This document shows, one piece after another, positions 20,801 through 64,000 of a stretch of 64,000 bases of DNA (positions are counted from its first letter, which is position 1; every line of letters begins with the position of its first letter). The stretch is from Candidatus Nomurabacteria bacterium (GTDB taxonomy: Bacteria > Patescibacteriota > Minisyncoccia > Phycocordibacterales > UBA9973). The stretch covers positions 684-64,683 of the forward strand of contig JAHFNJ010000006.1 in NCBI GenBank assembly GCA_023267375.1, read 5' to 3'. Under the pieces are notes generated by a model. The model saw nothing but the letters and a program-made list of their open reading frames with translations. It ran no database searches and had not been told where the DNA came from. The translations under genes were made by a program, and so were the position numbers.

Positions 20801-22867
20801 GCCACCATGAAATTGGATATGAGTCTGCGGTGGCTGGAGCGACCAACCAGCAAGCAGTGCATCGTAGTTTGCCGTTGAAAGCTGTGCACCAAAAAGGAAA
20901 TTTGCCATCACTGTTACATCACGAATATCCCAACCACTAATATCTTGATCAAATGATTGCGCGTTATAAAATACTCCCTCCATGTTTGTCACATTACCCG
21001 TATTCCACCCACCAATATCACTGTTGAAAAGTAGCGCATTTGAAAACATTCCATACAACGTTGTTGCACTTGAAACATCCCATCCACTTAAATCTCCGGT
21101 AAATTGAGATGTGTATGCAAAAAGAAATGTCATATTGGTAACATTCCCTGTATCCCAAGTACTCACATCAGCATTAAATGCGTAAGCTTGAAGAAACATG
21201 GCTGCCATATTCGTCACATTTGATACATCCCAATTGAGTGCTGGAGCGCCGCCGTTATTGAAAGAAGTAGCGTTATTAAACATATTCACCATAGTTGTCA
21301 CATTTCCAGTATCCCAATTACTAATATCACTATTGAATGAAGTTGCATATACAAACATCCCTTCCATATTAGTAGCACTACCTGTATTCCAGGCACTCAA
21401 GTCTTGGTTAAAAGTTGCAGTAACAGCGAAGGTGCCAAAAAAAGTGGTCACATTATGAACATCCCAAGCACTAACGTCAGCATTGAAAACATTGGCACCA
21501 TAGAAAGTGAACGCCAGGTTAGTCACACTTGAAACATCCCAGGAGCTAATATCTGTATTAAATTGATTTGCTTCCATGAACATTTCTTGCATATTTGTCA
21601 CACTCGAAACATCCCAATTGAGTACTGGAGCGCCGCCGTTATTGAAAGCATACGCATCATGGAACATGCTTATCATTGACGTCACATTTCCAGTATCCCA
21701 GTTGCTGATATCTTGGTTAAAAGCATATGCTTGTGCAAACACACCAATCATATTAGTCACGCTACTGGTATCCCAACCGCCAATTGGACTATTGAAAGAC
21801 TCTGCCCCCTGAAACATCCCATACATATCAACAACACTATGGACGTCCCAAGCACTTAAATCTTGATCAAACGATGGGATTTTACTGAGGGCATACCTCA
21901 TATTAGTAACATTGCCAACATTCCAAGAACTAATATCTACATCAAACACTGTAGCAGTCTCAAACATGCTTTGCATCGTTGTCACACTCGAAACATTCCA
22001 ATTGAGTGCTGGAGCACCACCGTTATCAAAGGCAGTAGCATGATAAAACATTTGCTGCATAGTAGTCACACTCGACGTATCCCAATTACTGATATCTGCA
22101 TTAAAATTGCTAGCCTCTGAGAATAACCCTTGCATCTGCGTCACACTACTGGTATCCCATGGAAGCGGCTGTCCATCATTATTAAAGGAAGTAGCAGCAA
22201 CAAACATACCAGCGAGACTTGTGACATTCCCAATATCCCAGCCACTTAAATCTTGATCAAAAGCAGTGGCATACGTAAACATATAAGTCATATCGGTAAC
22301 GTTTGATGTGTCCCAAAAACCGATATCTTCATTCATTACCGTTGCATGGGCAAACATATAATTCATTTTCATACCTCCTGCAATTGAAAGATCGGGCGCA
22401 TCAGTTGCATTAATGTGCAGGTTGGAACAGCCATAAAAAGAACTCTCCATGGATTTCCATTGGGTTGAACCCCATTGATCAACAGAAATAATTTTGTCTT
22501 TATCCCCTGCACCATTCGCAGTACCATTACTGAAAAGCATCCATGGATAGGTACCTGTAATCGAGACCGTGTAAGTACCAGGAGAGGGATACGTATGTGT
22601 AACACTACCAGTAACACCGACATCATCTACAACTCCGTCATTCTCCCAATCAATATTGTAGTTATAAACTGTGCCGAAGCCGTCTAGTTCAGCTGGAATC
22701 GTAATTTGGTTCGAACCTGATGTTCCCGGGTTAGTAGTTGTCCATGTCGTCACAAAAGCTCCTGGCACATAGGTAGCGCTCGTACTACTTAGTGCAAAAA
22801 TCAAGCCACCAACAACAATGATGATTCCGAGAATGATGTAAGAAATTGTGCGTTTTGTATATGACAT
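11816..22867 (-). CDS. giant surface protein (3,683 aa): three PKD-like + DUF285 26-residue repeat arrays, DUF5011/Ig-like domains, He_PIG-like domain, C-terminal NHL beta-propeller repeats
   Basis: N-terminal signal anchor MSYTKRTISYIILGIIIVVGGLIFALSS and a single uninterrupted 11 kb ORF. Dozens of F..A.SFNQDIS.WDVSNVTNM..MF units (DUF285-type repeat). There are three FVTTWQT...YNYNIDWGDG PKD-like heads. The NHL units are of the type NIYVADLSGARIEKFSSDGTF. Confidence 0.8.
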   Translation of the reverse strand: MSYTKRTISYIILGIIIVVGGLIFALSSTSATYVPGAFVTTWTTTNPGTSGSNQITIPAELDGFGTVYNYNIDWENDGVVDDVGVTGSVTHTYPSPGTYTVSITGTYPWMLFSNGTANGAGDKDKIISVDQWGSTQWKSMESSFYGCSNLHINATDAPDLSIAGGMKMNYMFAHATVMNEDIGFWDTSNVTDMTYMFTYATAFDQDLSGWDIGNVTSLAGMFVAATSFNNDGQPLPWDTSSVTQMQGLFSEASNFNADISNWDTSSVTTMQQMFYHATAFDNGGAPALNWNVSSVTTMQSMFETATVFDVDISSWNVGNVTNMRYALSKIPSFDQDLSAWDVHSVVDMYGMFQGAESFNSPIGGWDTSSVTNMIGVFAQAYAFNQDISNWDTGNVTSMISMFHDAYAFNNGGAPVLNWDVSSVTNMQEMFMEANQFNTDISSWDVSSVTNLAFTFYGANVFNADVSAWDVHNVTTFFGTFAVTATFNQDLSAWNTGSATNMEGMFVYATSFNSDISNWDTGNVTTMVNMFNNATSFNNGGAPALNWDVSNVTNMAAMFLQAYAFNADVSTWDTGNVTNMTFLFAYTSQFTGDLSGWDVSSATTLYGMFSNALLFNSDIGGWNTGNVTNMEGVFYNAQSFDQDISGWDIRDVTVMANFLFGAQLSTANYDALLAGWSLQPPQTHIQFHGGTSMYCTSATQRTILRDTYQWYSPPYYTNEFVDGGEDPLCGAFVTTWQTTNNGESITIPTNGGYSYNYYIDWGDGTAATTGSSANPSHTYATAGIHTVSINGDFPAIYFANSNIKDNSFPSILNKDKILSVEEWGRQEWDTFTEAFRGCSNLTISASAGNPVLTSVEDMSIMFQGATSMNTDISDWDVSNVTNMQNMFYGATAFNNGGQPLDWDNKLSNVTRMLYMFAYATSFNQPIANWNVSSVSTMQGMFQSASVFNQPIGGWNVGTVTDMSAMFYGAASFNQPIEGWDVSSVQDMSLMFQQAIAFNQELTAWDISSVTNMHNTFYGATSFNNGDTGNNGSKPLSWDNKFSNVVQSLYMFSGATSFNQDISNWNVSNVTNMQGMFYGATVFNNGDTGNNENRPLDWNVGKVTDFSIMFQSATHFNQPIATWTILGGNLSSINIDLSQMFQQAVAFDQDISEWTFNSNSSNTINMHNMFYGATAFNNGGVPLDWDAKISRVTQMLYMFSYASSFNQPIGGWDVSHVTTMEQMFAYATSFDQDIGGWDVGNVTNADGMFTGDTLSTANYDALLAGWDLLSLQSNVLFSGGLSLYCQSEPQRANMISSDGWTITDGGKAPLCDAFITTWQTTSGGETITIPTGGGVFNYDIDWGDGSTGTGITGNITHAYTSPGVHTISITGTFPRIVFGNSVDKDKLLSVKQWGPQVWNSMGGAFQGCSNVEINATDTPDLSQVTDMSHMFQNATSLNQSLNSWDVSNVTDMTSLFSGATIFNQPLNSWDVSNVTSMNSTFALAAAFNQPLNSWNVGNVTSMSSMFEGASSFNQPLNLWDVSKVITTSGMFFSATSFNGDITTWNVEKVADMSHMFHSATSFNRNIGGWDVREVTSMLAMFSGATSFNQDIGAWDPLKVVNMAYTFANATSFNQNISGWDTGEVQTLEGTFLGASSFNSSLVGWDTSKVTNMLSTFDGATSFNQNIGGWDTSKVTTMDHTFHSAPAFNQNIGGWDTGEVTTMHAMFSGATSFNQNIGGWDTSKVTDMSFMFANDTAFNQNIGGWDVAVVTTADGMFTGDTLSIANYDALLAGWDLLSLKSNVLFSGGFSKYCQSASQRANMISSDGWIITDGGSNCGPSVTITSPTNGSTVSGIITITATATDDNGVTKVEFYRGSNLIGTDTVGSGGTYSVSWDTTVLFDGDYILTAVAYDADSHTTTSSPVTVTISNGGGGIGGAGGGGQMCSITIIPAITLDTPTGPLHDGVLSTAYDASLVTTVNTAGTVSFELVSGTLPPGILPNTIGNLRSSVPIVATDSSGINGLPTVAGAYTGIVIRAVLTVDASHVYYSNSETYSIQIDSGGGNCPLANPPTISLNGSSSITIVKGGTYTELGAVGVDAKGNSSPIIPPTTNIFIRNGSGTIIPSLDTNVVDTYTIGYTFFDSCNTPADPIARTVNVVPPAGTNTPPVITVTPDSGTGLKNVTITKKVGTFVDPGAIATDVQDALLGIPLNLITVITNGNGTVVPFIDTNVIGVYTITYSVTDSGKTDTGVDTGNPLTATATRTVTILPPKQSFTLSCPALLMPDGIVGTVYGTENLTTSGSRSGSTVSFSIVSGALPDGLGSTITASGTQGQISVAPNNIPTKKGIYTFSVRARDSKLGLVDIFSNTVTCSITVKDDSIAQCQIGKGPFTGSIPANGSILVRTYIDDTEFGIGNTITDTLPADWAATVNFTDTTNNDITTRGVNLLVPGGVKVRTSSDGNYLYMITTGNTLEVYDITNPALFDSTSPNFAPPQPIGVVRLPGLYTDVQPIDLYVVDNTVYVISDNAQAELAIVDVATKTNPVVMGTFDAAISGNTFLTGKNVYADARGNILLAVSDSSQTTSNGAVFMIDGDASWNPVLRQVSETDLGVISGMAVYQDDTSGYIYLSTYEKGFIIIPYDFSAGGSMSPFVIPSGSNLPQNGSMALYYDQSTNVFNLVGVYSGNQLAVATVDVAQPNVADQLTNKSIYQFANSGGCCGVTPDIAIARQGNKNIVYTFIPDSGQTGTLYETDFTDSSNLTTFASRNLSFEMTGLVYDPTVNYMFGSALTNGRPYSFAPSAAPVVETNPAGYQMTHDATSAFLTGKIISGFSWGSNQTNTWMEYSIDPGLASATQTPLNTTNISAQGEFNADINGLTQNTTYYYRACAEGASGVPAQVCGDIISFTTDTVVAVAPEVTTDTATNIGQSAVTLNGILDAVNDVSADVFFKWGTPGNLINIVTAGTYLAPGTFSQSVSGGLTAGTNYEFQACATNSTGTNCGAILSFTTAIVLQSGGIKTVAPGNGYAYMITANGRLEVYDVSNPAVPSKSPNYVSIAGAATDLFVDGTIAYVTSTNPSAGIQAFDISIPDNPFAAWTMNVGNLVRPIGTLRGNAVWVGSSGQIIVAVSDGAFGGLVLLVKNSNPIFAPTIPPVISQETNITTIGDDLAVYTTTANAGYAYISSNTGLFAIPFSSGSFSAATRLGNAVTALDVSQGASLPPATPTFLNKWGSDGTGNGQFTNPYDIAIDSSNNIYVADLSGARIEKFSSDGTFLRMFGWGVSTGASQFEICVAPATCRAGIPGNGPGQFNSPSYFDVDSQGNLYVGDLTRVEKFDSSGNFLFQWGTPGIGNGQFGSVRGVAVGPADTIYVVDADNQRVQLFNSSGTFLSMFGWGVATGTAQLETCSPPSTCQKGIYGNGSGQFWNPMDVTVDSNGNVYVTSGQDRRVQKFSSSGAFLYTFGWGVSTGASQFEICVAPATCLAGLSGSGAGQFGVSSARYMTTDTTGNVYVADYNNSRIEIFSPAGMYLTQFGTYGTGNGQIGGSNGVTIDSSGHVYVTDQDNTRIQEFTAYASPSNATLLTASSGDLYIYAIDPSSGSTSLQNSGGTSVTSNTIYDITVGGSEKIAYLSVPGDVTQAKKVTYDDILNISVTSQSTGGSLWNTAYDLSSQYVYGANHDGASIGFIPINPSLFTLSSVKEYADALAQSISQS

Positions 22868-55609: not shown

Positions 55610-55683
55610 TGGGGAATCGTCTAATGGTAGGACAGCGGCCTTTGAAGCCGTTAATTGGGGTTCGAATCCCTGTTCCCCAGCCA
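55610..55683 (+). tRNA. tRNA-Gln (anticodon UUG), CCA encoded
   Basis: TGGGGAATCGTCTAATGGTAGGACAGCGGCCTTTGAAGCCGTTAATTGGGGTTCGAATCCCTGTTCCCCAGCCA. The acceptor stem is TGGGGAA/TTCCCCA, the anticodon loop is CTTTGAA (UUG) and the T-loop is GGTTCGAATCC. Confidence 0.8.
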
Positions 55684-55786: not shown

Positions 55787-56350
55787 ATGAACTTGGTTAA
55801 AGTGAATACTACTATTTTTGGCGAAGACTGCACAGTTGATCTAATGCAGTTTGATTCTTCTGATGGGAAAAAATGGAAAACTCTATTTGATCTATGGAAA
55901 GGTCTTAAAATGGGTATGCGTGATTACAAATCACGTGAGCCAAATTTTCCAGAAGGACTATCTGAAGTTGCTTTTTGTTTATGGTCTGGATCAACCAGAT
56001 TAATAAGTGCAAAAAAACTATCTAACACATCTTTTGATACATTTAATACTAAGACAAAAAGAGCTGAACAAATCAAAGCTTGTAGCGTTGAAAATGATCT
56101 TACTTCTTTTGGTCCAAAGTCTAGGTGGGATGATTTATATTTCTTGGACTTTTATGCTGATGGAAAAGTTGATGGAACTTTTAGTATTTATCTAATACCT
56201 AATAATTTTATTTACGATAATCAGGTTAATAAACTTCAGACACTCAAGCAACAACAAGAAGAAAAAAGGAGACCTAGGTTTTGTATCAAAAAAGATGTTA
56301 TTGAGAAATACAGTCTTAAGCCAGTCGCTACCAATGTAAAGGTTTGGTAA
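55787..56350 (+). CDS. hypothetical protein; candidate restriction endonuclease partner of the adjacent C5-MTase
   Basis: 187 aa, convergent and tail-to-tail with the MTase (stops 2 nt apart). It contains a possible PD-(D/E)XK-like stretch (WDDLYFLDFYADGKVDG) and has no RBS, so it may be leaderless. Confidence 0.3.
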   Translation: MNLVKVNTTIFGEDCTVDLMQFDSSDGKKWKTLFDLWKGLKMGMRDYKSREPNFPEGLSEVAFCLWSGSTRLISAKKLSNTSFDTFNTKTKRAEQIKACSVENDLTSFGPKSRWDDLYFLDFYADGKVDGTFSIYLIPNNFIYDNQVNKLQTLKQQQEEKRRPRFCIKKDVIEKYSLKPVATNVKVW

Positions 56351-56352
56351 TT

Positions 56353-57939
56353 TTACATCATCGCTTCCATCATTTTCTTTGCCACGGCTTCAATTACAGG
56401 AACACTCACTGAGTTACCAGCCTGTTTATACAGTGATGAATCTGCAATATTGGGCAGTACATAACTTTTAGGGAAACCTTGTATTCGAAAACACTCTAAT
56501 GGCGTAAGTTTTCTTATACCTTTTTTGTCTTTTATTATAGGTACATTGTGTCCACCCATTCCCATATTTGCAGTAAGTGTTGGACAAACCCCACTTTTAT
56601 TTTCACGGACATACTGTCTCCTCCATTGATATACTTTTCCTTCTTCTTTCACGTCTTTCTTTAGTTTCTCAAAAAGAGGTTTGCCGTTGTAGTAGTATTT
56701 TTCAGGAACATTTTTTTCTAATAAATCAGTAACTTTTTTTGTAAGTTTAACTGGTTCAGGAAAATTAAATTTATCCGAATAATCTTTATTTTTAAAACCC
56801 ACTATATAAATACGCTCACGATTTTGTGGAACATTACCATATTCCATAGTATTTAGTACTTTAGATTTTACATGGTAACCCAATTCTCTAAGAGTTTCTT
56901 CGATTACTTTAAAAGTATTGCCTCCGTCGTGGCTTTTCAGGTTTTTAACATTCTCAAGCATAAAACCCTCTGGATTTTTAGCTTTAATGATTTTTGCTAT
57001 ATCAAAAAATAGATTACCTCTATTTTTAGGATCGTCGAACCCTTTACGGTATCCTGCAATAGAAAACGCTTGGCAAGGGAATCCTCCTAATAAGAAATCA
57101 AATTCTGGCAAGTCATCAATCCCAATCTTTCTAATGTCCTCAACAATTAGTTTCGAGTTTCCAAAATTAAGATCGTAAGTAAGTTTACATGGAGCATCAA
57201 AATCATTTGCGAATACTGTTTTAAATCCAGCATTCTCAAATCCTGTTCTGATACCACCAACGCCTGCAAATAAATCTATGGTTTTAAAGCCATGCTTAGA
57301 CTTCTTTCTGGGTTTCGCTTCTTCTTCCAACTTAATATCTCGTATAACTTGCACAACGACACCTCTTATCTCTACATCTATTCTAAACAATGGTTTCATG
57401 TCTGGATTTCGCGGTTGCAATCTAATTTTCTTGTCTTCTTTATATAGTTTTTTAAGAGTTGCTTGATTATCATCAATAATTGCAACAACTGTTTGTCCGT
57501 TTTCTGCTACAGATTGTTTTTTAATAACAACAATGTCGCCATTAAAGATACCTTCATCTATCATACTGTCTCCAACAACACGCAGAGCATAGTGGTCTTT
57601 AGCAGTTTTGATAGCTGGATTTATTATAGATATGGTGTCTTGAGCATCTTCAATTGCTTCTATTGGTTGACCAGCGGCAATTTTACCAACAATAGGAATT
57701 TCAATGATTGATTTAATTTCTTTTTTTGGTGTCATACCACGATCGGTATCATCTGATTTTGAAAGGTAACCTTTCTCTCTTAGGGAAGCTATATGTTCGT
57801 GAACCGTTGAAACTGCCTTTAGATTTAAATTTTTACGAATCTCATCAATTGTAGGAGGAATGCCATTCTCAGCTGTATAAGTATTGATAAAATCGAATAT
57901 CTCTTTTTGTTTTTTTGTTAGTGTTTGCATATTACTCAT
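56353..57939 (-). CDS. LexA repressor (wHTH + S24 autopeptidase) fused to DNA (cytosine-5)-methyltransferase
   Basis: Residues 1-200 align motif-for-motif with E. coli LexA: LTKKQKEIFDFI, GIPPTIDEI, cleavage-site VGKIAAGQPIEA, catalytic Ser in RVVGDSMIDEGIFNGD and Lys in ATLKKL. Residues ~215-528 carry C5-MTase motifs I (DLFAGVGG), IV (GGFPCQAFS), VI (ENV) and X (QAGNSVSVPV). Confidence 0.8.
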   Translation of the reverse strand: MSNMQTLTKKQKEIFDFINTYTAENGIPPTIDEIRKNLNLKAVSTVHEHIASLREKGYLSKSDDTDRGMTPKKEIKSIIEIPIVGKIAAGQPIEAIEDAQDTISIINPAIKTAKDHYALRVVGDSMIDEGIFNGDIVVIKKQSVAENGQTVVAIIDDNQATLKKLYKEDKKIRLQPRNPDMKPLFRIDVEIRGVVVQVIRDIKLEEEAKPRKKSKHGFKTIDLFAGVGGIRTGFENAGFKTVFANDFDAPCKLTYDLNFGNSKLIVEDIRKIGIDDLPEFDFLLGGFPCQAFSIAGYRKGFDDPKNRGNLFFDIAKIIKAKNPEGFMLENVKNLKSHDGGNTFKVIEETLRELGYHVKSKVLNTMEYGNVPQNRERIYIVGFKNKDYSDKFNFPEPVKLTKKVTDLLEKNVPEKYYYNGKPLFEKLKKDVKEEGKVYQWRRQYVRENKSGVCPTLTANMGMGGHNVPIIKDKKGIRKLTPLECFRIQGFPKSYVLPNIADSSLYKQAGNSVSVPVIEAVAKKMMEAMM

Positions 57940-58010: not shown

Positions 58011-59357
58011 TTAATAACTCAAGCCAATAAGCTTATTTTTTAATGAAATATTACTTTTAAAACAAGTAAGCAATTCTCGCTTTTCTTCAACTGTACCGTC
58101 TTTCAGTATAAACTTGGCATAGTCTCTAATGTCTACGTCTTTTATTTGTATCTGCTGTTTAATATTTAGTACGGAATGATTAAATCTCTTAATCCGTTCA
58201 ACTTCACTTCTAATTTTTTCTTTCATGCCAATTTCACTAATGCTGATTTGATCTATAAGCTTTTCAAATTGTTGTATTAGCTCAATTTCATTTATGTATC
58301 CACATTTGCAAAATCTGTCTTTTGATTTTGCACAACCGTAGTACACATGTCGGTTTACACTACCGTCTTTAAGTTTCTTGAATTTTTCTTCTGCCGTTAT
58401 ACCTGATCCGCAAAGACCGCAATTCATCATCTTTATGAAAGCGAATTCTTTTGGTTCTTGAGTGCGAAGTGTCTGTGATTTTACCTGTGTTTGAACTTGA
58501 TCAAACAGTTCTTTGGAAATTATTGGTTCGTGTCTTCCTGTATAAAAGTTTCCACTTTTTCTAGGGTATTCAAAAACCCCATAATAAAATGGAGTTTCTA
58601 AAATCATGTATATATTACTCAAGGTCAATCCTTTGTTTCCATTACGCGTCTTTAGGTTTAATTCAAATTTAAGCCAATGATATATTTTTCTTCCACTCCA
58701 TCTTTCGTAAGCGACTTTTTCAAATATTTGTTTAACAATAGGTGCTCGTTCTGGATCTATAACTACCTGACATTTTTTATCGACATGCTTTTCGTTCAGG
58801 TATCCAAATATTGCAGGACCAGGTCGTAGTCCCATCTCACACCTTGTTCTTAATCCTCGTTTTACATTGATACTTTTATTGTCGTTTTCGAGCTTTGCCT
58901 GAGAACACAAGATCATTAGCAGGAATTTCTCGTTTGGAGAATTTTTGAAGTGTTGCCCATATGTTCTAATCTCAATAAGTTTGTTTTCATCCATTAAGTC
59001 GACAACTGATCCAAGATCTCCTGCGTTACGAGAAAGGCGATCGGGTGCCCAAGTAAGAATTCCTGTATATCTACCTCTGCGGATATCTTCAAGTAATTCT
59101 TTAAAGACTGGTCGCTGTCCTGATTCCTTTGCAGAATGTGATTCACGCCTAATCTCTACAACAGTTAGTCCGTCACGATCTGCAATCGTCAACATCTCTT
59201 TTACTTGTGACTCAATCGAGAGTGCTTGCTTTTCATCTGATTCGGTCGACTTCCTGGCATATAGGACGTAACGAACCTTTGCTTGTATGATCTCTGTCTT
59301 AACACCAAGGTTGCTTATGTATTGGGTTTCCATACATATATTGATGACGCAGATCAC
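58011..59357 (-). CDS. large serine recombinase (resolvase N-terminal domain + recombinase domain + zinc ribbon)
   Basis: N-terminal YARKSTESDEKQALSIESQ carries the catalytic Ser, the R..R motif is present, and the C-terminal Cys cluster is CGLCGS...YYGC. 448 aa. Confidence 0.8.
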   Translation of the reverse strand: MICVINICMETQYISNLGVKTEIIQAKVRYVLYARKSTESDEKQALSIESQVKEMLTIADRDGLTVVEIRRESHSAKESGQRPVFKELLEDIRRGRYTGILTWAPDRLSRNAGDLGSVVDLMDENKLIEIRTYGQHFKNSPNEKFLLMILCSQAKLENDNKSINVKRGLRTRCEMGLRPGPAIFGYLNEKHVDKKCQVVIDPERAPIVKQIFEKVAYERWSGRKIYHWLKFELNLKTRNGNKGLTLSNIYMILETPFYYGVFEYPRKSGNFYTGRHEPIISKELFDQVQTQVKSQTLRTQEPKEFAFIKMMNCGLCGSGITAEEKFKKLKDGSVNRHVYYGCAKSKDRFCKCGYINEIELIQQFEKLIDQISISEIGMKEKIRSEVERIKRFNHSVLNIKQQIQIKDVDIRDYAKFILKDGTVEEKRELLTCFKSNISLKNKLIGLSY

Positions 59358-59537
59358 TAGTTTTGCTAAGACTATGCAGACTAAGAAATACGTCGCATAC
59401 TCGCGATCAACGCCTTAGCAAAACCATATATCAGCGATACAATCAATCTAGAGTAATAGCAGTGAAAATGTTATTATTCTTTTACAACTGAATATCAGTC
59501 GACCTAACCCCTTTGGGAAACTAAAGGATATGGTCGC

Positions 59538-59690
59538 AAGTCCTATCAAGCATAAAGAACCCGTCATGGGGTGGCTTGATAGGCCGTATCGGGAAACTGG
59601 TACGAGAGGGTTCGCCCTCTACCCGTGGCGGGCTTTTTGTGTCTCAAGAAGCTCGATACGGAATTATTAAGTAATAAGTCCTATCAAGCG
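59538..59690 (+). ncRNA. structured intergenic element: three copies of a 12-mer (AGTCCTATCAAGC direct x2, inverted x1) flanking a GC-rich hairpin + T-run; candidate small RNA or operator/att region
   Basis: GTCCTATCAAGC occurs at 59539 and 59678, and GCTTGATAGG at 59573. The hairpin is AGAGGG-TTCG-CCCTCT, followed by CCCGTGGCGGGCTTTTT. No plus-strand CDS precedes the terminator-like structure. Confidence 0.3.
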
Positions 59691-59692
59691 TT

Positions 59693-60197
59693 TATGAATA
59701 CAACCAAAAAGTGCCCTGCGTGCCAGAAAGAGGTCGATGCGAAAGCAACCAAGTGTCCGTATTGTCAGTCAGACATGCGGAACTGGATTAGAAAACATCC
59801 AATAGGATCACTCATTCTAGTTCTGTTAGTAGTACCATTCTTTGTCAGTCAGATTATTGCAGAGCCGACACCTGAACAAACTCCCGCTCAACAAATTGCA
59901 GGAGTGAAGTACCAGAGCGCAAGAATCCTTGCAAAGTCATATATCGAGAAGGTGCCATTGAAGTCACCATCGACAGCAAAGTATAATCCTCCGACAACAA
60001 AGGTTGATCCAACAAATCCAAATCTCTTTGAAGTCTCATCGTACATCGACAGCCAGAACGGATTCGGAGCAATGATCAGAACATACTGGTCAATGAAGCT
60101 CGAATACATCGGAGGAGAAGACAATCAAGAGTCAGTCGAAACTGATGCAAACTGGAAAGTCGTAGAGTTCATCTTCGACGGAGAAAAGATTAAGTAG
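59693..60197 (+). CDS. zinc-ribbon membrane protein (hypothetical)
   Basis: MNTTKKCPACQKEVDAKATKCPYCQS is a CxxC...CxxC ribbon. It is followed by a TM helix and an extracytoplasmic domain. The start is placed at MNTTKK rather than the track's upstream Met. Confidence 0.45.
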
Positions 60198-60705
60198 TCT
60201 CAGGAGGTTTCTTCTTTCGTTTCTTTGGTTCTGGGATATCGTCCTTGATAACTCCCCAACGCTTGAAGAAGACCTCAGCATCCTTGCGAGCCTGCTCCAT
60301 ATCTTCTCTTTTGGAAGCAGACATCTCACCTAGTGCCTTGTCTTCAATTTCAAGTTTCTTTGAAATTTCAGCGAGGTAGCGGAATTGAGCAAAAGGATCT
60401 TCAGAATCAATTCTGTGGATGTACGGTCGTCTGAAATCATAGTGATTACGATCGAGCCAGTACATTGTGTACCTCACGTCTTTTGCTTTGATTCCTGCTA
60501 GCACGTTGCTTACTGCGATATCGTTCACGCGTCCTTTGCCGAGAGATAGTGCGTAGTTTGCTTGCGCCAAGAACGCAGGGTCTTCTTTCATCCAACGATA
60601 GAATGTGTTGCGAGAGATGCCGACCTTTTCACATGCGATCTGGAGCAGTGGGGTGTTCTCAAGCTCTGTCAGCAACTTATTTATGAGAGCTTTTGTCTTT
60701 TTCAT
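60190..60705 (-). CDS. phage terminase small subunit-like HTH DNA-binding protein
   Basis: The N-terminal LLQIACEKVGISRNTFYRWMKEDPAFLAQANYALS is the HTH typical of phage TerS/packaging proteins. The C-terminus is basic. Confidence 0.4.
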   Translation of the reverse strand: MKKTKALINKLLTELENTPLLQIACEKVGISRNTFYRWMKEDPAFLAQANYALSLGKGRVNDIAVSNVLAGIKAKDVRYTMYWLDRNHYDFRRPYIHRIDSEDPFAQFRYLAEISKKLEIEDKALGEMSASKREDMEQARKDAEVFFKRWGVIKDDIPEPKKRKKKPPETT

Positions 60706-61972
60706 ATACAGCTTTTTTACCAGTGAGCTTTTCCCAACGACGGATGATGAGGTCTACAAACACTGGCTCCAGTTCCATTCCGTACACTCTTCGACCAAGA
60801 GCTTCTCCTGCGATTAAAGTGCTACCTGACCCAAGAAAGCTATCAAGAATGATGTCGTTAATTTTCGTACATCGCTTGATTGCTTTCTCATGAAGACAAG
60901 GAGGCTTGGAAGTCGCATGCGTGTATTCTTTTGCAGAGAGCCTTTTCGCTGTCCATATCTCAAGGAAATCATCAACTTGTTGCATTAGTTCATTTCCAGT
61001 ACCGAACTCGTTGTTCAGTACTTCAGTAAGATCAGTCATTGATTTGGTTAGATATGGTTTGCCACGAATACCATAGACCGCAGGTTCGTATGCTTTGTTG
61101 CAGAAGACCTTAGGGACGCAGTTCTGACTGTTTTTTAGCCATAGGCACACACGCTTATTTTCAATACTAAGTGAGCGATACAGTTCTTGCACTACGCCGA
61201 TATAAATCTGATCACAGTAATAGAAGACGTGTGTATCCTCATGACACACAGCAAGTCCTGCTTCCATACTGTCTTTGAGAAACTTCTTGTATTCGTCGTA
61301 CGTTCTAGTATCGTTTACATTTCCTCCATAGTCCTGTGCGCCTCCAATTCCTGTGTTGTAGTCCACACCACCCTGTAGATTATATAAGGGGTCACTATAG
61401 ATGATTGATGCTCTCTCATCTCCAAACAATCTCTTTAGATTTTCTTTATCTGTCGAGTCGCCACACAAAATTTTGTGTGAGCCTAGGGTGATTAGGTCGC
61501 CGAGTTTTGTTTTTGGATTCTTGATCTTTTTCAGCTCCTTTTTTTCATCGAAGTTATCGTCGGTGGCTTCCTTGTCTTTGTCGAATATTTCAGAAAGTTC
61601 GATCGGATCGAACCCTGCGAACTCGAGGGTTTCGAAATCAAACTCCTTCAAAAGATCTATGTCCCATTCTCCAGATATTTTGTTTGAAGCGATTAAGTAC
61701 TCTTTTACTTCCTTTTCTGAGAGTTTTCGATTGGGGATGCGAACATCAATTAACTCTTCTCCGCGACCGAGCATTTTCAATGCTTTTATTCTTTGGTGGC
61801 CTGCCAGAATTTTTCCATCTAAATCCACGGCAGGTATTTCGACCAAATTATATTTCTTAATGCATTTCGTTAGGTCTGACATTTGTTTGTCAGGCATTTT
61901 TCTTGGGATGATCTCCTGGGGAATGAGATCATCCACTGTTTTTGGGACCGTAGTCCAGGCTAGTTTTTTCAT
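60677..61972 (-). CDS. ParB-like nuclease domain fused to beta-class DNA methyltransferase (N6A/N4C type)
   Basis: The N-terminal ParB/Srx fold motif is ..LAGHQRIKAL... The MTase motif IV SDPLYN precedes motif I DSFLGSGST, which is the beta-class order. Confidence 0.7.
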   Translation of the reverse strand: MKKLAWTTVPKTVDDLIPQEIIPRKMPDKQMSDLTKCIKKYNLVEIPAVDLDGKILAGHQRIKALKMLGRGEELIDVRIPNRKLSEKEVKEYLIASNKISGEWDIDLLKEFDFETLEFAGFDPIELSEIFDKDKEATDDNFDEKKELKKIKNPKTKLGDLITLGSHKILCGDSTDKENLKRLFGDERASIIYSDPLYNLQGGVDYNTGIGGAQDYGGNVNDTRTYDEYKKFLKDSMEAGLAVCHEDTHVFYYCDQIYIGVVQELYRSLSIENKRVCLWLKNSQNCVPKVFCNKAYEPAVYGIRGKPYLTKSMTDLTEVLNNEFGTGNELMQQVDDFLEIWTAKRLSAKEYTHATSKPPCLHEKAIKRCTKINDIILDSFLGSGSTLIAGEALGRRVYGMELEPVFVDLIIRRWEKLTGKKAVYEKDKSSHK

Positions 61973-62316
61973 AGGATTCTATAAAAATTATTTTGATAAT
62001 TGTCATAATTTTTATAGATACGCTCCGTTTACATATCTATACGATGCTTATGTAGGAGTGTCATAAACCTCCGTGCATAAATCGTAGCAATATAAGGCAA
62101 GCTATTTGTAGTTCCAAAAAAGCAGAAGTTGTAGAATGCTGTATTTGAAGGCTTTATTTGAAATATAAGAAAAAAGGTTCTTCGAGAATACCTGACAGTG
62201 TTCCGATCAATTACACATATAAAGTCATACAACACAAGCTCGAAAAATCAAGAGGAAAATGATATAATCGTTGAAGTTGTGTATGTAAACCTACAGCCAG
62301 CTAATATAAACAAGGT

Positions 62317-64000
62317 ATGAAAGTTTCACTTCTTAAGATAAACAATTTCAGATGTATTAAAACAGCGGAACTCTTTCTGGAGGAGCATACTTTATTAGTG
62401 GGTAAAAATAATGTTGGCAAATCTACTGTATGTGAAGCTCTCGATTTATTGCTAGGACCAGAGAGACTTAGTAGAACATCTCCAATCGATGAATATGATT
62501 TTTATAATGGGAAGTATTTAAGTGAAGCGGGTGAACCTATTCAAATTTTGATTGAAGCAGTACTCATTGATTTATCCGAAAAAGCAAAGAATACTTTTGG
62601 TGGACATCTAGAGTTTTGGCACAAGGGAGAAAAACGAGTATTGGAACTTGGTGAGATAGATACTGTTGATGCTGCAGATGTAGAGACATGCTTGAGATTG
62701 CAATTGAAAGGTCAATACGATCCAGAAGAAGATGAGTTTTGGGCAAAAACTTTTTACTCTCGAAGCCCTGGAGAAGAAGATGACGGTAATTTAACTGAAG
62801 TTTATCGTTCGGCAAAAAGAGAGATCGGTTTTCTTTATTTAAGAGCAATCAGAACTGGTAGTAGAGCGTTAAGTCTTGAGCGAGGTTCTTTGTTAGACAT
62901 TCTATTACGACTTGGACAAGTTCGTCCTCAGTTGTGGGAAAATACCCGAAATAAATTAATGGAGCTAGACCCTCCTCTAGATGATTCTATAGGTGCATTA
63001 CGCCCGATACTTGATAACATCGAAGCGAGAATTAAACAGTATGTTCCTCTTGATTCAGCAGATAAACCTACGCGCCTTTTCGTGTCACAGCTTACTCGGG
63101 AACATTTGCGAAAAACAGTTTCTTTTTTCATGTCGACAAGTCCAGATCAGGCTCCTGTACCTTTTCAAGAATTAGGTACGGGAACGCTGAATACTCTTGT
63201 ATTTGCGCTTTTGTCTGCAATCGCAGATCTTAAAAAGGAAAACGTCATATTCGCAATGGAAGAGCCCGAAATTGCTGTGTCGCCACATACCCAGAGAAGA
63301 ATTGTTGATTATCTACTCAAAAACACATCACAGTCGTTTATAACATCTCATTCACCATATGTAATTGAGAAGTTTTCTCCAGAACAAATAAAAATATTGA
63401 AGCGAGATAACAATGCAAATGTTACCAGTACATCCGTCACTTTGACTGCAGGATTAAAACCGAAGTTGTTTTATAGAAAATTAAGACCATCTATTGCTGA
63501 AGCAATTTTGGGGCAGGCTGTTTTGGTTGGAGAGGGGTTGGTAGAATTTCAAGTTCTTCGTGCTGCAGTTGATGTAATGGAAACTGAAAATCCTGATAAT
63601 TATCCATTTGATTTATCTGGTATTACTTTTTTCGATGCTGATGGTGATGGCAACTTATCTGAATACGGGGCGTTTTTTAAATCACTAGGTCTAAAGACTT
63701 TTGCTTTTTACGATAATGGAACTCGAACTCCTGCAGAGGTTGCTTCTATTGCTAGTAATTTTGACATAAACAAGCAGACCGCCTATTCCGATATTGAAAA
63801 GTTGTTAGCCGAGGAATTACCAATAGATATTCAGTGGAGTTATTTGCAGAGTTTAGTAGCTGATGGTTTGTTGCCTACCACTGTTCTTGTGTTACCAGCA
63901 GTTAAACCTTCGGATGCTGAAGTAAAGAATTTTACTAAGCAAGCACTTCTCTATAAGAAGGGTGATGGTAGATGTGCTGAGGTAATTAAGTTATGTACTA
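62317..64000 (+). CDS. OLD-family ATP-dependent endonuclease (ABC-type ATPase + TOPRIM), 3' end outside window
   Basis: AAGG RBS 2 nt upstream. MKVSLLKINNFRCIK...LLVGKNNVGKST is the Walker A and OLD N-terminus. VIFAMEEPEIAVSPH is the Walker B/D-loop and H-loop. TOPRIM Glu is in VLVGEGLVEFQVL and DxD in ITFFDADGDGNL. The frame is open to the window end. Confidence 0.7.
   Translation, partial: MKVSLLKINNFRCIKTAELFLEEHTLLVGKNNVGKSTVCEALDLLLGPERLSRTSPIDEYDFYNGKYLSEAGEPIQILIEAVLIDLSEKAKNTFGGHLEFWHKGEKRVLELGEIDTVDAADVETCLRLQLKGQYDPEEDEFWAKTFYSRSPGEEDDGNLTEVYRSAKREIGFLYLRAIRTGSRALSLERGSLLDILLRLGQVRPQLWENTRNKLMELDPPLDDSIGALRPILDNIEARIKQYVPLDSADKPTRLFVSQLTREHLRKTVSFFMSTSPDQAPVPFQELGTGTLNTLVFALLSAIADLKKENVIFAMEEPEIAVSPHTQRRIVDYLLKNTSQSFITSHSPYVIEKFSPEQIKILKRDNNANVTSTSVTLTAGLKPKLFYRKLRPSIAEAILGQAVLVGEGLVEFQVLRAAVDVMETENPDNYPFDLSGITFFDADGDGNLSEYGAFFKSLGLKTFAFYDNGTRTPAEVASIASNFDINKQTAYSDIEKLLAEELPIDIQWSYLQSLVADGLLPTTVLVLPAVKPSDAEVKNFTKQALLYKKGDGRCAEVIKLCT

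What the first reader, a model, noticed from the sequence alone, without database searches (positions are those of the whole stretch)
62317..64000. OLD-family ABC-ATPase/TOPRIM nuclease (Gabija GajA / P2 Old-like) running off the window end
The sequence shows Walker A (GKNNVGKST), the OLD-type Walker B/D-loop (FAMEEPE) and H-loop (SPH), and a C-terminal TOPRIM with the conserved Glu (GEGLVEF) and DxD (DADGDG), all in one polypeptide. This is the architecture of OLD-family nucleases, which act in anti-phage defence (P2 Old; Gabija GajA, paired with a UvrD-like GajB). The partner gene, if any, lies beyond 64000. The gene sits in an AT-rich island with recombinase, methyltransferase and phage-like genes, which looks like a defence island.
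Basis: partly seen in the sequence, partly recalled or inferred. Interest (0 to 1): 0.6.

Follow-up and report, generated by a model that had tools for sequence, protein, structure and literature searches.

The report
Gabija anti-phage nuclease gene gajA
The open reading frame at the window's end is the nuclease half (GajA) of Gabija, a very common two-gene bacterial anti-phage system, here in a candidate-phyla (Patescibacteria) bacterium; the finding is correct but ordinary.

Summary
Window 62317-64000 (+) is a real ORF, 561 codons open to the window end. A public contig identical over these 1,684 nt extends it to a complete 613-aa protein. Its stop is followed 3 nt later by the start of a UvrD-like helicase gene. 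PADLOC matches GajA over the full length (708 bits, E=3e-213). Pfam finds AAA_15, AAA_21 and OLD-like TOPRIM. An AlphaFold model's best PDB matches are GajA and Thermus OLD. In all 13 related loci with a full-length GajA (37-100% identity), a GajB gene follows immediately. It is class 2 OLD, not class 1.

Two motif calls were wrong. The H-loop is H345 (TSHSP), not 'SPH'. 'DADGDG' is the TOPRIM glycine loop, not the DxD. The canonical DxD slot is D466-N-G468, and the second aspartate is absent in all 62 clade members aligned. Six of the seven class 2 catalytic positions are conserved.

The gene is under strong purifying selection (dN/dS about 0.03). It lies in a serine-recombinase module next to a type II R-M pair and tRNA-Gln, in a Paceibacterota-like host. 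Verdict: new member of a known kind, low interest.

The parts
62240..62268 (+). Promoter-like site (TCGAAA, 17 nt, TG-n-TATAAT) 48 nt upstream of the gajA start codon
   Evidence: 10 of 12 consensus matches with an extended -10. DNA similarity to L001 begins at 62236. This is a consensus match only; function was not tested.
62317..64000 (+). gajA, codons 1-561 of 613. Class 2 OLD nuclease made of an ABC-type ATPase and a TOPRIM domain, cut by the window end.
   Evidence: open frame. (PADLOC GajA, 708 bits). (Pfam domains). (identical contig gives the 613-aa full length). (P0001, 100% identical, 613 aa). (model and fold matches to GajA and OLD). (dN/dS 0.03).
62401..62427 (+). Walker A, GKNNVGKST (K35)
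   Evidence: coordinates. G29, N31, N32, G34, K35 and S36 are invariant in 62 homologues. K35 aligns with B. cereus GajA K35.
63244..63270 (+). Walker B region, VIFAMEEPE (E315, E316)
   Evidence: Aligns with B. cereus 'VIYLIEEPE'. E316, P317 and E318 are invariant.
63343..63357 (+). H-loop, TSHSP (H345)
Evidence: Aligns with B. cereus H320 in 'STHSP'. H345 is invariant.
63523..63549 (+). TOPRIM beta1 and the catalytic glutamates E406 and E410 (LVGEGLVEF)
   Evidence: E406 = Bc E379. By the ExxxE pattern, E410 = Bc E383 / Bp E404 (PMC10822852, PMC6755086). Both are in 62 of 62 sequences. Strand 401-405 in the model.
63634..63651 (+). TOPRIM glycine loop after beta2, DADGDG (D440-G445).
   Evidence: Model: beta2 is 436-440 and the next helix starts at 444. 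hhalign pairs this stretch with B. cereus 'LEVGGT', which holds G409. Conservation: G443 in 61/62, D444 in 57/62 (plus 4 E), G445 in 61/62, D442 in 38/62.
63712..63720 (+). Canonical DxD slot after beta3: D466-N467-G468. The first Asp is kept and the second is absent.
   Evidence: hhalign gives D466 = Bc D432 and N467 = Bc N433. D466 is in 62/62. Column 468 reads K41 M7 G5 R5 L4, with no Asp. Strand 460-465 in the model. The Pfam OLD-like_TOPRIM match ends at residue 467.
63790..63798 (+). D492-I493-E494 at the start of the first helix of the helical domain; probable metal-B ligand
   Evidence: E494 is invariant and helix 493-500 directly follows beta4. Equivalence to Bp T506/E508 and Bc D511/513 is inferred from position and pattern (PMC6755086, PMC10822852). 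It is not covered by hhalign.
63958..63960 (+). K548 (KKGDG), probable catalytic lysine
   Evidence: K548 and G549 are invariant in 62/62. K548 lies 54 residues after E494, the same spacing as Bp E508 to K562 (PMC6755086). The equivalence is inferred.
60677..61972 (-). N6/N4 DNA methyltransferase, transcribed divergently from gajA; part of the shared module
   Evidence: Pfam N6_N4_Mtase E=4e-22. PADLOC MTase_II PDLC03229, residues 14-426. 74% identical to its L001 counterpart.
60190..60705 (-). Small HTH protein (weak similarity to Sf6 terminase small subunit and to a transposase HTH, both below Pfam cut-offs)
   Evidence: 53% identical to its L001 counterpart.
59625..60197 (+). Zn-ribbon protein with a hydrophobic segment
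   Evidence: Weak Pfam Zn_ribbon_3 and DZR hits. 78% identical to its L001 counterpart.
58011..59333 (-). Large serine recombinase; left end of the module shared with L001, L003 and L004
   Evidence: Pfam Resolvase, Recombinase and Zn_ribbon_recom. Identity to counterparts: 85% in L001, 71% in L003, 61% in L004. The 440-aa product is called as a gene on public contigs.
55787..57939 (.). Type II R-M pair: Bsp6I-like endonuclease (55787-56350, +) and a C5 cytosine methyltransferase fused to a LexA-like N-terminus (56353-57939, -)
   Evidence: Pfam RE_Bsp6I; LexA_DNA_bind, Peptidase_S24 and DNA_methylase. PADLOC REase_II and MTase_II. GC 0.336.
55610..55683 (+). tRNA-Gln (TTG) flanking the island
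   Evidence: 90% identical to the tRNA region of L001.

Best explanation
This is gajA, the nuclease subunit of a Gabija anti-phage system (a class 2 OLD nuclease). It is cut at codon 561 of 613 by the window end, and gajB, a UvrD-like SF1 helicase gene, starts 3 nt after its stop.

Mechanism, inferred by homology to B. cereus Gabija:
1. GajA and GajB assemble into a 4:4 complex.
2. The N-terminal ABC-type ATPase domain of GajA (K35, E315/E316, H345) binds NTP or dNTP. At normal nucleotide levels this keeps the C-terminal TOPRIM nuclease off.
3. During infection the block is lifted. Proposed triggers are nucleotide depletion, or linear DNA ends not occupied by RecBCD.
4. The TOPRIM site then nicks or cleaves DNA by two-metal catalysis, using E406, E410, D466, E494 and K548.
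5. GajB engages the resulting DNA ends and hydrolyses (d)ATP/(d)GTP, which reinforces activation.

The operon is cargo of a small serine-recombinase module. The module lies beside a type II R-M pair and tRNA-Gln in the chromosome of a Patescibacteria (Paceibacterota-like) bacterium.

Shown here: the ORF, its domain architecture, conservation of catalytic residues, the fold, the start of gajB, conserved gajA-gajB pairing, and purifying selection. Inferred: all biochemistry and the anti-phage phenotype.
For: - Family match: PADLOC GajA PDLC00086, E=3e-213, 708 bits, near full length. The next-best non-GajA models score 99 bits or less.
- Domains: Pfam AAA_15, AAA_21 and OLD-like_TOPRIM, all above their cut-offs.
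- Solved structures by sequence: family profile against the PDB gives B. cereus GajA at 7e-16 and T. scotoductus OLD at 9e-14.
- Profile comparison: hhalign against a full-length B. cereus-type GajA gives 97.6% probability over residues 1-467.
- Fold: AlphaFold2 model with pLDDT 84-95 across the TOPRIM and helical domains. Foldseek top PDB hits are GajA (8x5i, 8u7i, 8sm3) and OLD (6p74), E about 1e-19.
- Extension: L015 is identical over window 62317-64000 and gives the full 613-aa protein plus the gajB start. The exact protein, P0001, is on a 64,951-bp contig.
- Partner: the L001 orthologue (about 95% aa identity) is followed by a full-length GajB, PADLOC 578.6 bits. gajB lies directly downstream in 13 of 13 loci.
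- Selection: dN/dS = 0.03 at dS about 1 against L001.
- Catalytic residues: E406, E410, D466, E494 and K548 are present in 62 of 62 homologues.
- Mechanistic background: PMC8136825, PMC10781630, PMC10822852, PMC6755086, PMC10568477, PMC12407980 and bioRxiv 10.1101/2023.05.02.539174.
Against: - Only the first 22 codons of this lineage's own gajB could be recovered. Longer contigs were not retrievable, so an intact gajB in this genome is not proven.
- The second Asp of the TOPRIM DxD (Bc D434, Bp D457) is missing. It is G468 here and mostly K in the clade. Schiltz et al. 2019 describe this residue as absolutely conserved in class 2 OLDs.
- Identity to the characterised B. cereus GajA is low (12-16% in the Foldseek alignments to GajA chains). 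A TOPRIM-only profile found no PDB sequence match even at E<=10.
- No member of this clade is known to me to have been tested experimentally.
- The dimerisation insert (residues 178-293) is modelled at pLDDT below 50.
Confidence: 0.92

Rival explanations
1. It is a genuine GajA homologue, but its TOPRIM chemistry is altered. With D-x-G/K in place of DxD, the clade might only nick DNA, might use a different metal-A second shell (for example D444 from the DGDG loop), or might act mainly as a sensor or scaffold.
For: The second DxD Asp is absent in 62 of 62 clade members and in the 37-38% identical L010-L012 at the aligned column. D444 in the adjacent loop is conserved in 57 of 62, plus 4 Glu. 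R470 is almost invariant just after the slot. A TOPRIM-only profile finds no PDB relative by sequence.
Against: In B. pseudomallei OLD the second Asp only hydrogen-bonds waters on metal A, and single substitutions there had no discernible effect on cleavage (PMC6755086). The five other metal or catalytic positions are invariant here, and dN/dS is 0.03. That pattern fits an active enzyme. No coordinates were available to test whether D444 reaches the metal site.
Confidence: 0.1
2. It is a stand-alone class 1 OLD nuclease (P2 Old-like) with no helicase partner.
For: PADLOC Old and T. scotoductus OLD (6p74) also match. The window itself contains no partner gene.
Against: Old scores 80 bits against 708 for GajA. 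An ORF with a GajB N-terminus starts 3 nt after the stop on an identical contig. GajB is present in 13 of 13 related loci. A helical domain follows beta4, as described for class 2 (PMC6755086).
Confidence: 0.02
3. It is the ABC-ATPase component of another defence system: PARIS AriA, Septu PtuA, retron Eco8-type class 3 OLD, or MADS MAD3.
For: There are weak hits to AriA (99 bits), PtuA, the retron Eco8 effector and MAD3. Foldseek also finds retron Eco8 and PtuA structures. An unexplained structured RNA (LOOT) lies 2.7 kb upstream.
Against: All NCBIfam scores are far below their cut-offs: MAD3 54 vs 420, PtuA 41 vs 500, Eco8 18.5 vs 250. AriA and PtuA lack a fused TOPRIM domain. None of the neighbouring ORFs scanned has a reverse-transcriptase, AriB or PtuB match. 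The downstream gene is GajB.
Confidence: 0.02
4. It is a housekeeping RecF/SMC/Rad50-type repair ATPase.
For: The N-terminal 50 residues match SMC_N, RecF and Rad50.
Against: The matches cover only the Walker A region. RecF scores 26.7 bits against a cut-off of 172, and SMC_N 33.9 against 40. The protein has a C-terminal TOPRIM domain and sits in a mobile module.
Confidence: 0.005

Closest known systems
Bacillus cereus VD045 Gabija GajA (class 2 OLD; PDB 8SM3, 8U7I, 8JQ9, 8X5I) with GajB
   Same: It has the same two-domain architecture: an ABC-type ATPase with a helical insert, then a TOPRIM and helical domain. Aligned residues are Walker A K35, Walker B EEPE, H-loop (H345 = H320), TOPRIM E406/E410 (= E379/E383), D466 (= D432) and a conserved Lys (K548, about K541). 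The gajB helicase gene is directly downstream with near-abutting reading frames. GajA structures are the top Foldseek matches.
   Different: Identity is only 12-16% in the Foldseek alignments to GajA chains. The second DxD Asp (D434) is Gly here and Lys in most of the clade. The glycine loop carries conserved acidic residues (DGDG), where B. cereus has EVGG. The segment between the DxD slot and the metal-B helix is much shorter (24 residues against 77). Spacing from the metal-B Glu to the Lys is 54, as in BpOLD, against 28 in B. cereus. There is an acidic, disordered C-terminal tail (residues 580-613, ending EEDF). The host is a Patescibacteria bacterium.
Burkholderia pseudomallei class 2 OLD (PDB 6NK8, TOPRIM region)
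   Same: It shows the ExxxE pattern (E400/E404 = E406/E410) and the first DxD Asp. An acidic residue sits on the first helix of the helical domain (E508, about E494). The catalytic Lys lies 54 residues after it (K562, about K548). It is also paired with a UvrD-like helicase (PMC6755086).
   Different: BpOLD has D455-x-D457, while this protein has D466-N-G468. The T506 equivalent is D492 here and Gly in most of the clade. The equivalences beyond D466 are inferred from spacing and the model, not from an alignment.
Class 1 OLD nucleases (phage P2 Old; Thermus scotoductus OLD, PDB 6P74)
   Same: The overall ATPase-TOPRIM fold is shared. 6p74 is Foldseek rank 3 (E=4e-19) and has the best single-sequence PDB match over the Walker A region.
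   Different: Class 1 genes stand alone, whereas this gene has a helicase partner. PADLOC Old scores 80 bits against 708 for GajA.
PADLOC GajA subfamily model PDLC00086
   Same: The match is near end to end (residues 1-561 to profile 1-556 of 600; the L001 orthologue covers 1-580 of 600). The window protein is therefore an ordinary member of a clade already catalogued as GajA.
   Different: Nothing notable. The window copy is simply truncated by the window end.

Membership tests
OLD-family nucleases (ABC ATPase + TOPRIM) | N-terminal ABC-type ATPase with Walker A, Walker B and H-loop | tested here: met
   Pfam AAA_15 (101.6 bits, cut-off 32.1) and AAA_21 (63.2 bits, cut-off 27). K35, E315/E316 and H345 align with B. 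cereus K35, the EEPE motif and H320.
OLD-family nucleases (ABC ATPase + TOPRIM) | C-terminal TOPRIM fold carrying the invariant glutamate and the first Asp of the DxD (the direct metal-A ligands) | tested here: met
   PF20469 at 26.1 bits, cut-off 23.2. The four-strand core is modelled at pLDDT 84-95. E406 = Bc E379 and D466 = Bc D432. Both are present in 62 of 62 sequences.
OLD-family nucleases (ABC ATPase + TOPRIM) | Second Asp of the DxD (Bc D434, Bp D457). This is a characteristic residue reported as absolutely conserved in class 2. It is a water-mediated ligand and is individually dispensable in BpOLD, so I treat it as a descriptor rather than a membership criterion. | tested here: not met
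G468 occupies the slot. The clade column reads K41 M7 G5 R5 L4 of 62, with no Asp.
Class 2 OLD / Gabija GajA | Homology to GajA profiles over the full length | tested here: met
   PADLOC PDLC00086 at E=3e-213, plus more than 20 other GajA subfamily models. hhalign to B. cereus-type GajA at 97.6% probability. Foldseek top hits are GajA.
Class 2 OLD / Gabija GajA | UvrD/PcrA/Rep-like helicase gene (gajB) immediately adjacent | tested here: met
   On L015, identical to the window over 62317-64000, an ORF starts 3 nt after the gajA stop. Its first 22 residues match L001 GajB in 19 positions. L001 GajB is full length (PADLOC 578.6 bits; Pfam UvrD-helicase and UvrD_C). gajB is adjacent in 13 of 13 loci. 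Caveat: only 22 codons of this lineage's own gajB were seen.
Class 2 OLD / Gabija GajA | Helical domain attached to the TOPRIM core, carrying a metal-B acidic residue and a catalytic Lys | tested here: met
   The model has five helices at 493-579 after beta4. E494 and K548 are invariant. Their equivalence to Bp E508 and K562 is inferred from position and spacing.
Class 2 OLD / Gabija GajA | GajA:GajB 4:4 complex; nuclease inhibited by nucleotides; anti-phage activity | not testable with these tools
   These need expression, biochemistry and phage challenge. They are known only for B. cereus and a few other Gabija systems (PMC8136825, PMC10781630, PMC12407980).
Class 1 OLD (P2 Old-like) | Single gene with no helicase partner | tested here: not met
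   gajB start seen downstream. 13 of 13 related loci are paired. PADLOC Old scores 79.6 bits against 708 for GajA.
Class 3 OLD (retron Eco8-type effector) | Adjacent reverse transcriptase and msr/msd ncRNA; NCBIfam retron_eff_Eco8 above its cut-off | tested here: not met
   NF038234 scores 18.5 bits against a cut-off of 250. None of the neighbouring ORFs scanned matches a reverse transcriptase. Rfam finds only LOOT and tRNAs.
PARIS AriA / Septu PtuA / MADS MAD3 | Score above the curated cut-off, and the system's partner gene present | tested here: not met
   PtuA 41.1 against 500 and MAD3 54.4 against 420. AriA 99 bits against 708 for GajA. No AriB or PtuB match among the neighbouring ORFs scanned.
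RecF / SMC / Rad50 housekeeping ATPases | Full-length match above the curated cut-off | tested here: not met
   RecF 26.7 against 172, RecN 12.6 against 408, SMC_N 33.9 against 40. Only residues 1-50 match.

The most novel reading that the evidence does not exclude
This large, cross-phylum GajA clade (PADLOC PDLC00086; 4,930 proteins at E<=1e-20 among the 8,000 candidates scored) may run a rewired TOPRIM active site. The second DxD aspartate is replaced by Lys or Gly. The conserved Asp of the neighbouring DGDG loop (D444), or the nearly invariant R470, may take over a role at metal A. This could change cleavage chemistry or regulation relative to B. cereus GajA. Separately, a Patescibacteria host may lack RecBCD (not checked here). 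Self versus non-self discrimination would then need a route other than the RecBCD-exclusion model.
Probability: 0.15. Interest if true: 0.4.

Novelty: new member of a known kind. Interest (0 to 1): 0.18.

Why it matters
It matters little on its own. [quoted passage not shown]

Three modest points of value:
- It documents an apparently intact Gabija operon in a candidate-phyla-radiation (Paceibacterota-like) bacterium. The operon is carried on a small serine-recombinase module beside an R-M system.
- A whole GajA clade lacks the second DxD aspartate. [quoted passage not shown]
- It corrects two motif assignments (H-loop and DxD) that are easy to get wrong when reading the sequence by eye.

Tried and rejected
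1. Recovering this genome's own gajB. Look-ups by the methyltransferase, by P0001 and by the recombinase returned only 2-5 kb contigs. The GajB homologue search showed no partial protein from the 64,951-bp contig among the 120 listed rows, and none of the four closest proteins inspected has the exact N-terminus. Only 22 codons were obtained.

2. TOPRIM-only profile (A3) against PDB sequences. There were no hits at E<=10. Residue mapping instead used a B. cereus-type GajA recovered from a plasmid-collection record and hhalign.

3. Attachment-site repeats flanking the module in L001. No convincing direct repeat was found. This is uninformative, because serine recombinases use very short crossover cores.

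4. A defence 'hotspot' between tRNA-Gln and the recombinase. In L001 that space holds an ABC-2 transporter, not defence genes, so the idea has no support beyond the window.

5. Literature on LOOT RNA. No description was found in the searchable library.

6. Antisense ORFs inside gajA (62564-62848 and 62928-63131, minus strand). I consider them spurious. Their similarity to L001 simply mirrors gajA conservation.

7. Class 1 OLD, retron OLD, PARIS, Septu, MADS and RecF/SMC. All were rejected on scores and gene context.
Full report
**Observation.** Window 62317-64000 on the + strand translates without a stop for 561 codons and runs off the window end. A promoter-like site with an extended -10 lies at 62240-62268, 48 nt before the ATG. 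DNA similarity to the closest related locus begins at 62236.

**Family assignment.**
- PADLOC model GajA PDLC00086 matches residues 1-561 to profile positions 1-556 of 600 (E=3e-213, 708 bits). The best non-GajA models are far lower: AriA 99 bits and P2 Old 80 bits.
- Pfam gives AAA_15, AAA_21 and OLD-like_TOPRIM, all above their gathering scores.
- NCBIfam models for MAD3, PtuA, the retron Eco8 effector, RecF, RecN and Rad50 all score far below their cut-offs.
- A 24-sequence family profile hits B. cereus GajA chains (7e-16) and Thermus scotoductus OLD (9e-14) in the PDB.
- An AlphaFold2 model built on 62 homologues has pLDDT 84-95 across residues 400-580. It is below 50 in the helical insert at 178-293 and in the C-terminal tail.
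- The best Foldseek matches of that model in the PDB are GajA (8x5i, 8u7i, 8sm3) and OLD (6p74) at E about 1e-19. Retron Eco8 OLD and PtuA follow.

**Extending the gene and finding the partner.**
- The neighbouring methyltransferase led to a Logan contig, L015. Its reverse complement is identical to window 59487-64000, with 0 mismatches over 62317-64000, and it continues for 228 nt.
- The protein ends at residue 613 with a TAA stop. Three nt later an ORF begins 'MAIVIGEEHEIILNATDHLLVT'.
- The exact 613-aa protein (P0001) is on record from a 64,951-bp contig. The window's lysyl-tRNA synthetase is on a contig of the same length, so only about 950 bp of that contig lie outside the window.
- In L001 the orthologue is 94.6% identical in protein and 84% in DNA. 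It is followed after 3 nt by a 576-aa ORF starting 'MAIVISEEHEIVLNATGHLLVTGGPGSGKTT'.
- That ORF matches PADLOC GajB end to end (E=3.7e-174, 578.6 bits) and Pfam UvrD-helicase and UvrD_C.
- tblastn shows a GajB homologue directly downstream of GajA on the same strand in all 13 loci with a full-length GajA (37-100% GajA identity).
[quoted passage not shown] This is therefore class 2 OLD, that is Gabija.
- Attempts to retrieve more than 22 codons of this lineage's own gajB failed.

**Catalytic residues and two corrections.** Published catalytic sets are as follows. For B. cereus GajA: K35 and H320 in the ATPase-like domain, and E379, E383, D432, D434, D511, D513 and K541 in the TOPRIM domain (PMC8136825, PMC10781630, PMC10822852). 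For B. pseudomallei OLD: E400, E404, D455, D457, T506, E508 and K562 (PMC6755086).

I recovered a full-length B. cereus-type GajA (L019, 578 aa). It was found with a tblastn query identical to the PDB GajA fragment, and its residues match the published numbering. I compared it with the 62-sequence profile by hhalign: 97.6% probability, covering residues 1-467 here and 1-433 in B. cereus. The mapping is:

| Role | B. cereus GajA | This protein | Basis |
|---|---|---|---|
| Walker A Lys | K35 | K35 | hhalign |
| H-loop His | H320 | H345 | hhalign |
| TOPRIM Glu | E379 | E406 | hhalign |
| Second Glu of ExxxE | E383 | E410 | hhalign |
| Conserved glycine loop | LEVGGT (G409) | DADGDG (440-445) | hhalign |
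| First DxD Asp | D432 | D466 | hhalign |
| Middle DxD residue | N433 | N467 | hhalign |
| Second DxD Asp | D434 | G468 | next residue after the alignment end |

In the model beta2 is 436-440 and beta3 is 460-465.
- The true DxD slot reads D-N-G. Column 468 has no Asp in any of 62 clade members (K41, M7, G5, R5, L4), while D466 is invariant. The three 37-38% identical relatives also lack Asp at that column.
- Beyond the hhalign range, E494 (invariant, at the start of the first helix after beta4) and K548 (invariant, 54 residues later) fit Bp E508 and K562 by position and spacing. This is inference.
- Six of the seven class 2 catalytic positions are thus occupied by conserved residues, and all of them lie inside the window.
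- In BpOLD the second Asp only hydrogen-bonds waters on metal A, and single substitutions there had no discernible effect on cleavage (PMC6755086). I therefore do not read its absence as inactivation.
- D444 in the DGDG loop (57 of 62 Asp, 4 Glu) is a candidate substitute. I could not measure distances in the model.

**Selection.** Against L001, gajA has dN = 0.031, dS = 0.97 and dN/dS = 0.03 over 613 codons. The other module genes have saturated synonymous differences (pS 0.77-0.87) and 4-14 times higher dN. The gene is under strong purifying selection. It is also less diverged than its neighbours, which suggests the Gabija cassette was exchanged more recently than the rest of the module.

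**Context.**
- The host is a Patescibacteria bacterium. The window's lysyl-tRNA synthetase (on a contig of the same 64,951-bp length) has as nearest named relatives Candidatus Paceibacterota (73%), Patescibacteria group (67%) and Candidatus Nomurabacteria (65%). Cell-wall and housekeeping genes fill the rest of the window.
- Gene order after tRNA-Gln(TTG) at 55610-55683:
  - a Bsp6I-like type II endonuclease;
  - a C5 methyltransferase fused to a LexA-like N-terminus;
  - a large serine recombinase;
  - a LOOT RNA;
  - a Zn-ribbon protein;
  - a small HTH protein;
  - an N6/N4 methyltransferase;
  - gajA.
- Only the stretch from the recombinase to gajAB is shared with L001. The chromosomal flanks differ apart from the tRNA.
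- L003 and L004 also pair this Gabija clade with a related serine recombinase.
- The 'defence island on a mobile element' reading is therefore reasonable. 'AT-rich' applies mainly to the R-M pair (GC 0.336), less to gajA (0.38) against the chromosomal 0.416.

**Mechanism (inferred by homology).** GajA and GajB form a 4:4 complex (PMC10781630, PMC10822852). [quoted passage not shown] After infection the block is relieved and DNA is nicked or cleaved by two-metal catalysis (PMC6755086). GajB senses the resulting DNA termini and hydrolyses (d)ATP/(d)GTP (bioRxiv 10.1101/2023.05.02.539174). Recent work proposes that Gabija targets linear DNA ends not occupied by RecBCD (PMC12407980). None of this was tested here.

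**Verdict.** It is a new member of a known kind, namely Gabija GajA of an already catalogued clade. Interest is low. The only mildly unusual points are the clade-wide loss of the second DxD aspartate and the Patescibacteria host.

Noticed in passing
window 59501-59620 (+); also L001 7079-7197 (+): A full-length Rfam LOOT RNA (RF03000) scores 81.6 bits against a gathering score of 46.4. It lies in the gap between the serine recombinase and the Zn-ribbon ORF, inside the module that carries Gabija. It is at the same position in L001 (82 bits) and absent from L003 and L004. I found no published function.
   Followed up: partly
window 56353-57939 (-), with 55787-56350 (+): A C5 cytosine DNA methyltransferase is fused to a complete LexA-like N-terminus (LexA DNA-binding domain plus S24 peptidase). 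The LexA-type self-cleavage elements look intact by eye: AAG at 88-90, GDSM at 123-126 and LKK at 162-164. It sits next to a Bsp6I-like restriction endonuclease. This could couple R-M control to the SOS response. The same arrangement occurs on ENA contig L021.
   Followed up: partly
window 58011-64000 compared with L001 5596-11842: gajA has clearly lower synonymous divergence (pS 0.54) than the recombinase, Zn-ribbon, HTH and methyltransferase genes of the same module (pS 0.77-0.87). This suggests the Gabija cassette was exchanged between lineages more recently than the rest of the module.
   Followed up: partly
GajA residues 580-613 (beyond the window; L015 70-171, minus strand): The C-terminus is an acidic, proline-rich tail modelled at pLDDT below 50 and ending in EEDF. 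Many clade members also end in acidic tails, while B. cereus GajA does not. Its function is unknown.
   Followed up: no
window 62830-62913 (GajA residues 172-199): The segment FLYLRAIRTGSRALSLERGSLLDILLRL is among the most conserved in the family, with many invariant positions. Even so, from about residue 178 onward it is modelled at pLDDT below 50. It may be an oligomerisation or DNA-contact element that a monomer model cannot place.
   Followed up: no
window 11816-22867 (-): There is a giant ORF of 3,683 aa, followed by further large ORFs of 965, 803 and 1,403 aa on the same strand. These were not examined.
   Followed up: no
L014 10001-10504: In a proteobacterial MAG only GajA residues 181-348 are matched (68% identity), and no GajB hit follows. 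This may be a gene remnant.
   Followed up: no
L003 8580-13711: A related serine recombinase (71% identical) lies directly upstream of gajAB, and a tRNA gene lies about 110 nt after gajB. This is a second case of the cassette sitting beside a tRNA.
   Followed up: no
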